Shown: positions 27,001-29,336 of the stretch, piece by piece
How positions within the stretch are numbered: the first letter of the stretch is position 1
Layout of the letters: every line of letters starts with the position of its first letter
NCBI GenBank assembly: GCA_038243585.1
Contig: JBBSQY010000004.1
Location: 1 to 64,000 of the forward strand
Reading direction: 5' to 3'
Length of the DNA: 64,000 bases
From: Candidatus Sumerlaeales bacterium
Lineage (GTDB): Bacteria > Sumerlaeota > Sumerlaeia > Sumerlaeales > Sumerlaeaceae
Made by a program: the position numbers

Positions 27001-29336
27001 ACGGGAATTGTTTGCCACCCAGATGTGGAGCGGCGCCAGTCTTCTACCGGTTGTTTTTTCTCCGGAGGCGTTTTTATAAGATACAGCGACTTTCTGGTTG
27101 TTACTGATGGCGCTTCCCACCAGCTCATACAGGTCGTGTCCAGGGCGGCCCGTCTGTTTGCGGCTCGAAGCCCCTCCATAAAATTTTTCCTGCAGGAGCT
27201 CCATTTGCTCCCGAAAGGCCGGAGGGCGGCTTTTCAGTATTTTTCGGGTAACCTCAGAAAAAGACTCGGCGATAAAGTCGTCGGGAGAACCCCTCAGCTC
27301 CGTTTCCGCCAGCAGAATAGCGATGATTTCCATGGGTGTCAGCGGAATAGGTGGGTTTGATCGAAAGGCCTCCGTGCTTTTCCAGACCGTGGACTGGCCA
27401 AGCTTTTCACGATACACGCCAAAACCGGCTTCTTCAAGGGCAACAAGATCCCGGCGCACGTTGCGCTCGCTGCACTCCACTTCTTCGGCAATCTGAGACA
27501 GGCGCTTTCCGAGCTGGCTGTTTCCCAGATACATTAAAATGCGCCACTGCCGGGCTAACTGCTCTCCGCGCATAACCTTTATCTCCCCATAGACTGCTAC
27601 AAGTTACGTCAGCAGTAAGCCATTTAGGGCGGTAGGCAAGAGATATCTCCGCGTTAGGTCGCTATTAGGATCAGGTTGAAGAGCGGTTATGTAAACTAAA
27701 AAACCCCGACACCGTTTTCAGGTGTCGGGGTTTTAAGATAAAACCAAAATCTTAGGTTAAACTACCAGCGGTAATGAGCAAAAGCCTTGTTGGCTTCGGC
27801 CATACGGTGGGTATCTTCTTTTTTCTTAACGGCAGAACCTGTGCTGTTGAAAGCGTCGGTAATTTCATTGCCGAGGCGCTGCGCCATGGTCTTCTCGCCG
27901 CGTTTGCGTGCGGAGTCAAGCAACCAGCGAATCGCCAGCGATGTGCGGCGCTCCGGGCGAACTTCAACGGGAACCTGGTAGTTGGCACCACCTACGCGGC
28001 GGCTCTTGACTTCCAGAAGAGGCTTAATGTTTTCGAGGGCCTGCGTGAAAATGTCAATCGGGGTCTGTTCGCCGCCAATTTTGGTTACGGCAGCCTCCAT
28101 TGACTGATAGAAGATGCTCTCGGCGGTGCTTTTCTTGCCGTCGTGCATTAAGCTGTTAATAAATTTAGTGATAAGCGTGCTCTCGAACTTCTGATCTGGA
28201 AGAACGGTGCGCTTGATTGCTTCGCGCCTGCGTGACATATTCTGTTAAAGCCTCCAAAACTGTGCATCTCATATAACCGAAAGACGCAGTAGCGGTCGCT
28301 GAGCGGTATTATTCAGGATATTCGTATAGTGACAACATCGAAGGACGACGCGTTCAGACATATGTCGCATGCTCAAGTTATAGTCGTCATCTTTGACGGA
28401 GATCCTTGACAGTGATAATGGTTTATATACTGTTATCTTATAAACTGCAAAAGTTGTAGGTAACAATTTACTTTATATTATCTTATAAGAGGGAGTTGGC
28501 CCAATGAACACCAAAGCATTCACGCTTATTGAGTTGCTGATCGTCGTTGCAATTATTGCAATTCTTGCAGCCATCGCTGTCCCCAATTTTCTTGAGGCGC
28601 AGACTCGGGCGAAAGTGTCTCGTGGTTATGCAGATATGCGTTCCGTGGCTACCGCGCTGGAAACTTATGCCGTTGACAATTCAAAATATCCATATGACGT
28701 TGATAGTCGTGGCTATCCCTGGTACTTAACCGATAATATGACTACGCCTATCTCGTACATGACTAATGCGAGTTTAATGAAGGATCTGTTCCGCGAGGGT
28801 AGTCCAGGTTTACCAGTGAACCCTATACAGAGAATGATTGCGTTACGGTATCGCTACCTGAACAATATGTCCACATTGCAGGGTTGGTCGGCCTCATCTC
28901 TCCCAAGAACTGCGTATGCTGCACCGGTTCCGAGGGGCGCCTGGGCACCTTCTGTACCTAATGGCGGGGTCTCAAGAAGCGATTTCGACGAGAGCATGGA
29001 ACTTTTTGGGCAGTGGAAAATGTCTTCCGCGGGGCCCGATAAGACGGCCACTGATTTTATTAAGGGCCGAAATTTCTATAATGCAACAAATGGAACTGTT
29101 TCGTCAGGAGATATCATTATTTCCCAGAAGGGGCTTAAACAGTAAGGCCCTTCTGGGAAGGAATAAGTATGGTACGCTTTTCATCTAAGAAATAAAAACA
29201 GGGTACATGGGAACAACAAAGCGTTTTTACTCCGTTTGGAATGCTACTTGTGGTCGCCATCCTGGTGGCGAGAGCACTGAAAAAACTGCAAATTTAACTT
29301 ATATATAGGCGCAGGCAATTTAGCAAAGATCTGTCA

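What a model noticed while it worked through the whole genome (the two positions that open the first line are those of the whole stretch)
27762..28238. Dissolution of universally conserved translation/division operons (rpsL-rpsG-fusA-tuf, rplK-rplA-rplJL-rpoBC, ftsA-ftsZ) [...]
rpsG (here), fusA (C10), tuf (C21), rplK (C19), rplA (C48), rplJL (C6), rpoBC (C55), ftsA (C22) and ftsZ (C42) are all separated, each inside a contig among unrelated genes. Even rpsL-rpsG and rplK-rplA, among the most conserved gene pairs in bacteria, are broken family-wide; the solitary rplA has its own L1-type binding site.
Evidence so far: 52 of 65 textbook gene pairs are split in this genome, only 2 of them at contig edges. 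In single-contig G012 rpsL, rpsG, fusA, tuf lie at 2.82, 1.57, 0.79, 0.43 Mb and rplK, rplA, rplJ at 1.35, 0.06, 0.86 Mb; split also in G003; rplK-rplA and rpsL-rpsG are adjacent in G048 and G069, the str operon is intact in G023. L1-type motif in 6 of 6 genomes.
(Added by a program. Inside this text positions count along the whole contig: contig position 1 is position 1 of the stretch shown here. "Call 12" and the like, gene names such as g00115 and contig names such as C1 are that model's own, and its searches are not shown. The text may have been shortened before it was handed on; [...] marks where a part breaks off. The agent that wrote the report below was given it as the finding of a first reader that could run no searches.)

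Follow-up and report, generated by a model that had tools for sequence, protein, structure and literature searches.

The report
Scattered ribosome genes, new shared promoter
One family of uncultured Sumerlaeota bacteria has broken up several gene clusters that almost all bacteria keep together, and its scattered ribosomal-protein genes now share a new promoter-like signal, probably read by a former stress sigma factor that has lost its inhibitor.

Summary
The split is real and family-wide. rpsG has no rpsL or fusA beside it in 12 of 12 family genomes that hold it; rplA stands alone in 13 of 13, atpG in 12 of 12, rpsB lacks tsf in 11 of 11. Other families of the class keep these pairs (20/21, 17/17, 17/17, 18/19). 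Corrections: S10-spc, alpha, secE-nusG-rplK and nuo are intact; ftsA|ftsZ and rpsG|fusA are also split in many outgroups; the L1 site is inherited. The family does not shuffle faster than its relatives. New here: rpsL, rpsG, rplA, rplM, rpsB and rplJ carry a family-specific upstream element, TGAAT(AAA)-N16/17-nnT(A/T). At rplM it replaces the TTGAC of all 20 outgroups. An orphan ECF sigma fits it: in 12 of 13 family genomes, more conserved than RpoD in the pair tested, with the Met that specifies GAAT. Its outgroup orthologues sit with an anti-sigma-like gene, two of four behind TGAAT-N16-(C/T)GTA. Best reading: operon-to-regulon conversion by a domesticated ECF sigma. That this sigma reads the element is inferred, and cause versus consequence is open. 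No earlier scan note on this was found.

The parts
27762..28238 (-). rpsG (S7), stand-alone gene
   Evidence: ORF; Pfam PF00177 E 1.7e-62; no rpsL or fusA within 1.5 kb
28283..28316 (-). Family-specific promoter-like element upstream of rpsG (-35-like TGAAT at 28311-28315; a weak copy in this genome)
   Evidence: Same register, 72-93 nt before the start, in 12 of 12 family genomes; 0 of 21 outgroup loci
28251..28255 (-). Shine-Dalgarno GGAGG of rpsG
   Evidence: Sequence; present in the family leaders printed
27698..27737 (-). Intrinsic-terminator-like hairpin with T run closing the rpsG transcript
   Evidence: Fold of the 85-nt region -28 kcal/mol; position
26554..27573 (-). WYL/WCX-domain regulator, present downstream neighbour (inverted relative to rpsG in G002, on another contig in G001)
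   Evidence: Pfam
28504..29145 (+). Prepilin-type (N-methyl) gene, divergent upstream neighbour; one of 31 such leaders in G000
35269..36124 (-). rplM-rpsI, a pair that is not split (30 of 30 loci)
36164..36197 (-). Second copy of the element, upstream of rplM, where outgroups have TTGAC
   Evidence: GAATAA 9 of 10 and TTGAC 0 of 10 in the family; 2 of 20 and 20 of 20 in outgroups; position. The candidate sigma gene lies outside the window, at G000:C1:125234-125899 (-)

Best explanation
On the stem of this family an ECF sigma factor ('ECF-A') lost its anti-sigma partner, became constitutive and took over the promoters of ribosomal-protein genes and probably rpoD. Shown: the splits; the family-specific element; the loss of TTGAC at rplM; the orphan state and extreme conservation of ECF-A; the element-like site before two outgroup ECF-A cassettes. 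Inferred: the element is a promoter with -35 TGAAT and -10 nnT(A/T); ECF-A reads it; once co-regulation came from a shared promoter type, with inherited RNA operators (L1 site, L10 and S2 leaders) still giving feedback, selection to keep rpsL-rpsG and rplK-rplA-rplJ together relaxed, and the class's high background shuffling scattered them. The atp, ftsAZ, his, trp, ruv and clp splits do not use this element and need ordinary relaxed selection.
For: Fixed pattern in 260 nt upstream, family vs outgroup: rpsL 10/10 vs 1/20, rpsG 12/12 vs 0/21, rplA 10/13 vs 0/17, rplM 8/10 vs 3/20, rpsB 11/11 vs 0/19, shuffled expectation 0.4-1.0; control genes atpG 0/12 and ftsZ 0/10. The pattern was drawn from rpsL, rpsG and rplA; rplM, rpsB and rplJ (4 of 4 informative) in other genomes are held-out tests. 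Fixed spacing, T 22 nt after the G in 44 of 54 sites. Sites lie 5' of the L1, S2 and L10 leaders (S2 and L10 leader labels are recalled, Rfam gave no match). Also before rpoD in G000, G001 and G007, where G020 has TTGACA. RpoD region 4.2 is the same in family and outgroups. ECF-A: 12 of 13 family genomes at 73-93% identity to G000's; non-synonymous codon differences G000 vs G009 4/188, against RpoD 9/170, rpsB 20/210, rplA 46/220, second ECF 22/165, group-2/3 sigma 64/220. Met aligns with RpoE Arg171, which gives T at -31 (Todor et al., section 6). All 4 outgroup orthologues examined sit in a sigma + membrane anti-sigma-like + YbjQ-like cassette; G020 and G026 have TGAAT-N16-(C/T)GTA upstream. 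The partner was not found beside ECF-A in 12 family loci or anywhere in G000. Free flanks of five marker genes are kept in 38-46% of family pairs at 65-90% marker identity but 0 of 256 outgroup pairs, so rate is not the difference.
Against: No transcript data, start sites or binding assay. ECF-A has Asn at the RpoE Asn84 position, which favours G at -12; GT(A/T) is seen at rpsL (10/10) and rplA (7/12) but at none of 32 rpsG, rplM and rpsB sites, which have TA. The element is not enriched genome-wide in G000 (28 upstream regions vs 26.2 shuffled). No consistent site before secE, tuf, tsf, rpsP, rplI; the fusA site of G000 was not confirmed in three short windows. rpsL keeps a TTGAC in 5 of 10 (expected 2.9). 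No site found before the G034 cassette and only a poor one before G038's; none in the 600 nt examined for rpoD in G009. The anti-sigma label rests on sequence features, with no Pfam match. ECF-A was not found in G001 (81% complete). Promoter swap and splits map to one branch, so their order cannot be read. Genomes are kin; one search pairs are not independent.
Confidence: 0.55

Rival explanations
1. The element is real but is read by something else: RpoD with an activator bound over the -35 region, or the group-2/3 sigma (G000:C6:8915-9745) with its altered region 4.2.
For: TA in the -10 zone at 42 of 54 sites, including all rpsG, rplM and rpsB sites. The group-2/3 sigma is in 12 of 13 family genomes and has a RpoD-like region 2 with a different -35 helix.
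Against: Full TAnnnT in only 7 of 54 sites, and no TA at rpsL. The group-2/3 sigma is class-wide (22 of 28 outgroups) and evolves fast (64/220). It does not explain the conservation of ECF-A or the sites before the outgroup ECF-A cassettes.
Confidence: 0.25
2. Drift on the family's stem (bottleneck, or duplication and differential loss as in SNAP) broke many operons at once; the promoter swap is a separate event or a later repair, not the cause.
For: atp, his, trp, dcw, ruv, clp, pst and lpx pairs are split too, and atpG and ftsZ lack the element. Outgroups already lose rpsG-fusA, ftsA-ftsZ and atpG-atpD at times. Bulk operon content is low across the class (same-strand pairs within 50 bp: family 0.18-0.29, outgroups 0.24-0.29). 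Brandis 2021 (abstract) reports bursts of relaxed selection on this cluster.
Against: Unsplit genes (rplM-rpsI) and operon heads (rpsL, rpsB) also swapped promoter, so it is more than repair of orphans.
Confidence: 0.35
3. The family has an unusually high rearrangement rate, driven by dispersed repeats (REP-like arrays, prepilin leaders) or lost repair genes.
For: 125 of 307 neighbour junctions differ between G000 and same-genus G001 at 68% median identity; rplA has different neighbours in each of G000, G001, G002; G000 has REP-like repeats and 31 prepilin leaders.
Against: Over 90% of broken junction sides have no REP (229 of 250) and no pilin (243 of 250); the REPs were not seen in the G001 or G007 samples. 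mutS, mutL, recA, recF, recG, recJ, recN, recQ, ruvABC, uvrD and rho are present. Outgroups lose free flanks faster.
Confidence: 0.07
4. UGAAU is an RNA operator (S7-type site) copied to the leaders of rpsL and rpsG.
For: UGAAU is one of two elements of the E. coli S7 site (PMC3616713 section 16); some leaders can fold with the motif at a stem base.
Against: The partner AGUAA/UGUAA is near the motif in 1 of 10 rpsL and 0 of 12 rpsG leaders; the motif is also before rplM, rpsB, rplA, rplJ, rpoD and dnaJ; predicted folds disagree; it replaces TTGAC at rplM.
Confidence: 0.05
5. Assembly or binning artefact.
For: Most genomes are fragmented; rpsL is missing from G000.
Against: Same splits in all 13 family genomes, including one single contig; genes lie inside contigs; family L1 proteins form one clade, support 98/97; each freed gene has a conserved leader.
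Confidence: 0.01

Closest known systems
ShbA, the ECF sigma that transcribes the principal sigma gene hrdB in Streptomyces (PMC12019637, abstract read)
   Same: An ECF sigma with a housekeeping job; the element here also lies before rpoD in three genomes.
   Different: By its abstract ShbA governs hrdB; here the predicted targets are mainly ribosomal-protein genes, tied to operon break-up. No orthology was tested.
SigR/SigH of Actinobacteria (Todor et al., bioRxiv 10.1101/2020.06.23.168245, passages and section 6)
   Same: Met at the Arg171 position giving T at -31; stress-type targets (dnaJ in three genomes, trxA and clpX as loose matches in G000).
   Different: SigR/SigH is an anti-sigma-controlled stress regulator; ECF-A has no anti-sigma beside it and scores 84.8 bits against the SigH_actino cut-off of 251.55.
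[quoted passage not shown]
   Same: The same ancient cluster is taken apart in a lineage-specific burst.
   Different: The passages I saw concern mainly separation of whole operons; here cuts fall inside operons (rpsL|rpsG, rplK|rplA|rplJ, atpA|atpG) and come with a change of promoter class.
L1-binding mRNA site before rplA (PMC3616713, passages)
   Same: A site directly before rplA, as in Cyanobacteria, Actinobacteria, Chloroflexi and Methanococcus.
   Different: Nothing new in the site itself; it is inherited from the intact rplK-rplA spacer.
Operon-poor genomes such as Cyanobacteria (PMC2588523, passage)
   Same: Low operon content with dispersed biosynthetic pathways.
   Different: The passage does not report loss of rpsL-rpsG or a shift of ribosomal promoters to an ECF type; I did not test cyanobacterial genomes.

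Membership tests
ECF (group 4) sigma factor | Regions 2 and 4 only, about 200 aa | tested here: met
   221 aa; PF04542 and PF08281 over cut-off; TIGR02937; aligns with SigW, AlgU, RpoE structures
ECF (group 4) sigma factor | Co-transcribed anti-sigma | tested here: not met
   None beside it in 12 family loci and no homologue of the outgroup partner in G000; present in 4 of 4 outgroup cassettes examined
ECF (group 4) sigma factor | Autoregulated promoter | tested here: inconclusive
   Site before 2 of 4 outgroup orthologues; no consistent site before family copies
ECF-type promoter | GAA(C/T) -35 with 16-17 nt spacer and short -10 | tested here: met
   54 aligned sites; T at +22 in 44, A/T at +23 in 53; sites were picked with a rule that favours these letters, the fixed-pattern test is
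ECF-type promoter | G at -12 as predicted from Asn84 | tested here: inconclusive
   17 of 54 sites (rpsL, rplA); none at rpsG, rplM, rpsB
ECF-type promoter | Transcription start just downstream, dependent on the sigma | not testable with these tools
   No RNA holder listed
Sigma-70 promoter | TTGACA -35 and TAnnnT -10 | tested here: not met
   TTGAC 0 of 10 at rplM; TAnnnT 7 of 54
SigR/SigH orthologue | TIGR02947 over cut-off | tested here: not met
   84.8 vs 251.55 bits
ShbA orthologue | Sequence orthology and conserved neighbourhood | not tested
   Only the abstract of PMC12019637 was read
L1-binding mRNA site | Stem with G-A bulge before rplA or rplK | tested here: inconclusive
   Sequence pattern in 13 of 13 and 12 of 17 leaders; structure not scored, no Rfam match
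S7-binding mRNA site | AGUAA and UGAAN on facing strands | tested here: not met
   Partner element near 1 of 22 rpsL and rpsG sites

The most novel reading that the evidence does not exclude
This family has handed transcription of its ribosomal-protein genes and its own rpoD to a constitutive, essential ECF sigma, a dedicated 'ribosome sigma', and has traded ancient operons for a regulon, much as eukaryotes coordinate scattered ribosomal-protein genes through a shared promoter element.
Probability: 0.45. Interest if true: 0.92.

Novelty: new variant of a known kind. Interest (0 to 1): 0.8.

Why it matters
Why rpsL-rpsG and rplK-rplA stay together in nearly all bacteria is an old question (co-regulation, co-assembly, or rarity of viable breaks). 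This family of 3-5 Mb genomes with intact repair genes has split them while relatives that shuffle at least as fast have not, and the split goes with a change of promoter class. That supports co-regulation as the binding force and makes it testable.

Tried and rejected
Faster shuffling in the family: rejected. REP-like repeats or prepilin leaders as breakpoint hot spots: REP at 21 of 250 broken vs 14 of 364 kept junction sides, pilin 7 vs 10, too few to explain the breaks. Loss of repair, recombination or Rho genes: present in G000; recO not found with the E. coli query. Altered RpoD: not seen. The element as a genome-wide housekeeping promoter: rejected, TTGACA is still strand-enriched (71 vs 31) and the element is not. 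De novo gapped-word search returned mainly REP words. Rfam: 0 matches on 10 loci. RNA runs: no RNA holder listed. The genome-contig scan did not return relatives, so it served as a control set. The rpsG codon comparison was out of register and is not used; the TTGAC context printed for outgroup rpsL had an index slip (the counts are sound). G009's rplJ window began downstream of the expected site and the three fusA windows were short, so they are uninformative. rplL|rpoB was tested in G000 only. Gene calls come from my own simple caller, which misses some short or atypical genes. Paper searches found no report of these splits or of this promoter in Sumerlaeota; PMC8092238 has no occurrence of operon, sigma, synteny or gene order in its main text. 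The library lacks most subscription papers and I read no supplements.

Full report
Setting. The window is G000:C4:1-64000, a 3.43 Mb, 99-contig genome, 89.7% complete. The prepilin-type gene beside rpsG falls in Atlas clusters whose commonest taxon is Candidatus Sumerlaeota, and earlier notes on this genome use the same name. The collection holds 13 genomes of its family ('f1', G000-G012) and 75 of the phylum. Outgroups below are other families of the same class from a 41-genome set.

The observation. rpsG is at 27762-28238 (-) with its own Shine-Dalgarno, a terminator hairpin and unrelated neighbours. Within 1.5 kb flanks: rpsG lacks rpsL and fusA in 12 of 12 family genomes, rpsL stands alone in 10 of 10, rplA in 13 of 13, atpG lacks atpA and atpD in 12 of 12, rpsB lacks tsf in 11 of 11, ftsZ lacks ftsA in 13 of 13. 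Outgroups keep rpsL-rpsG in 20 of 21 loci, rplK-rplA-rplL in 17 of 17, atpA-atpG in 17 of 17 informative loci and rpsB-tsf in 18 of 19; the misses are cut by contig ends. Each search cut out at most 30 loci, so a few outgroup genomes were not examined per gene. In unrelated bacteria rpsL-rpsG is adjacent in 77 of 77 and rpsG-fusA in 71 of 75 informative loci of 80. Single-contig G007 shows the same scatter, and family L1 proteins form one clade, so this is no artefact.

Limits of the observation. Of 114 E. coli-derived pairs present in G000, 54 are kept, 57 split inside contigs and 3 at edges; S10-spc-alpha keeps 26 of 27 and nuo 12 of 12, while the dcw, his and trp pairs are all broken (13 genes with paralogous or weak best hits were dropped first, and the pair list is my own). 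rplK stays in secE-nusG-rplK and tuf heads S10-spc. rplM-rpsI is kept in 30 of 30 loci. ftsA|ftsZ (8 of 20), rpsG|fusA (8 of 19) and atpG|atpD (3 of 18) also occur in outgroups. The L1-type site is before rplA in 13 of 13 family and 12 of 17 outgroup genomes and before rplK in 0 of 16; that position is known from other phyla (PMC3616713, passages). It is a pre-adaptation, not a product of the split.

What does not drive it. Bulk operon content is only slightly below that of outgroups. Gene order does move fast, with 125 of 307 junctions broken between G000 and G001, but relatives move at least as fast: non-operon flanks of five marker genes are shared by 38-46% of family pairs at 65-90% marker identity and by 0 of 256 outgroup pairs (pairs are not independent). 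REP-like repeats were seen in G000 only and, like prepilin leaders, mark under a tenth of broken junctions. Mismatch repair, recombination genes and Rho are present. The outgroups therefore keep these operons against strong shuffling, and the family stopped keeping them.

The new element. Leaders of rpsG, rpsL and rplA in the family share TGAAT, usually followed by AAA, then after 16-17 nt a short box ending in T(A/T). A fixed pattern hits rpsL 10/10, rpsG 12/12, rplA 10/13, rplM 8/10 and rpsB 11/11 in the family, against 1/20, 0/21, 0/17, 3/20 and 0/19 in outgroups and 0.4-1.0 expected from shuffles; atpG (0/12) and ftsZ (0/10) lack it. It also precedes rplJ in 4 of 4 informative genomes and rpoD in G000, G001 and G007. 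A stricter pattern gave 24 loci in four genomes, among them rpsG four times, rpsL four times, dnaJ three times and gyrA once. In G000 looser copies lie before infC, infA, rpsF, rplS, fusA, nusA and ilvC; these were not confirmed across the family. Among 183 G000-G001 orthologue pairs 6 share a site, 1.25 expected. Outgroups have TTGAC before rpsL and rplM in 20 of 20 each; the family has it in 5 of 10 and 0 of 10. Genome-wide the element is not enriched and TTGACA still is, so this is a small regulon beside a normal sigma-70 system. It sits upstream of the RNA leaders, has fixed spacing and lacks the partner of an S7 site, which argues for a promoter.

The candidate reader. RpoD is unchanged in region 4.2, and TAnnnT is present in 7 of 54 sites. 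Of the sigmas in G000, an ECF at C1:125234-125899 stands out. It is in 12 of 13 family genomes, and its G000 and G009 copies differ at 95 synonymous but 4 non-synonymous codons of 188, fewer than RpoD, S2 or L1. Its region-4 Met aligns with RpoE Arg171; Met there specifies T at -31 (Todor et al., section 6), matching GAAT. Relatives at 42-51% identity occur in 18 of 24 genomes of three outgroup families and in none of the 38 other genomes of the phylum at that threshold. The four examined lie in a sigma + membrane protein + YbjQ-like cassette, and two have TGAAT-N16-(C/T)GTA just upstream, which is the sequence seen before family rplA. In the family the partner gene is not beside the sigma and was not found in G000. 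Against this, the -12 G expected from Asn84 is missing at rpsG, rplM and rpsB, several translation genes have no site, and nothing here shows binding. The group-2/3 sigma, or RpoD with an activator, remains a serious rival.

How it most likely works. Shown: splits, element, promoter swap, orphan and conserved ECF. Inferred: ECF-A, freed from its anti-sigma, transcribes ribosomal-protein genes and rpoD; inherited RNA operators supply feedback; with co-regulation supplied in trans, internal genes could survive on their own promoters. I put the element being a promoter at about 0.85, ECF-A as reader at about 0.6 and the swap having enabled the splits at about 0.4. The non-ribosomal splits need a more general relaxation on the same branch.

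Comparison and novelty. An ECF with a housekeeping target is known (ShbA, PMC12019637, abstract), as are GAAT-reading ECFs and lineage bursts of cluster break-up (PMC8046335, abstract and passages; PMC6735719, passages). In E. coli S7 translation is coupled to S12 (PMC3616713; PMC10931766, passages), so a free rpsG must have given that up. Ten searches found no description of these splits in Sumerlaeota or of ribosomal-protein genes moved to an ECF-type promoter; coverage of subscription journals is poor and no supplements were read. The scan's own notes held nothing on this in G000 among the 8 of 43 shown and one unrelated split in another lineage. Verdict: real, family-specific, a new variant of known regulation on present evidence, and close to a new kind if ECF-A proves to be the ribosomal sigma.

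Noticed in passing
G000:C61:8809-13786, C22:37444-38319, C1:22484-23917, C20:35759-36019: The F-type ATP synthase is encoded in four places (atpIBEFHA, atpG, atpD, atpC); atpA|atpG is split in 12 of 12 family loci. In G004 atpC lies just upstream of the ECF-A gene.
   Followed up: partly
G000:C61:10383-10892: An extra ORF of about 170 aa lies between atpH and atpA.
   Followed up: no
G000:C21:34679-34891: A short called ORF lies between rpsC and rplP inside the S10 block.
   Followed up: no
G000, e.g. C16:3394-3502, C15:48887-49427, C16:55019-55747: Several REP-like repeat families (about 60, 50 and 15 copies) and Y1-type transposase-like genes (label recalled); not seen in the G001 or G007 samples.
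   Followed up: partly
window:19461-20069 and 28504-29145; 31 sites in G000: Prepilin-type genes share a leader of about 110 nt that acts as a dispersed DNA repeat; a different paralogue faces rpsG in each of G000, G001, G002.
   Followed up: partly
L464 (G010:C10:344315-346276): G010 has two tandem ECF-A copies (66% and 73% to G000) and weaker copies of the element.
   Followed up: no
G000:C1:92247-92888, C6:45680-46693, C62:6178-6723; window:55776-56522: ruvA, ruvB, ruvC and yebC are all on different contigs.
   Followed up: no
G000:C6:8915-9745: A group-2/3 sigma with an unusual region 4.2, found in 34 of 41 genomes of the class and not found in the five f10 genomes.
   Followed up: partly
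L368-L381 and L389, upstream of rpsB: The upstream neighbour of rpsB is homologous in 10 of 11 family genomes, a new linkage fixed in the family.
   Followed up: no
G007:C1:3004800-3006845: A second EF-G-like gene over the TIGR00484 cut-off.
   Followed up: no
G000 genome: rpsL, pheS, rplU, rpmA, dnaN, mraY, murG, dxr, rpoZ and gmk were not found with E. coli queries; several contigs look duplicated (C5/C75, C31/C93, C72/C80), in line with 3.6% contamination. tRNA genes are mostly single.
   Followed up: no
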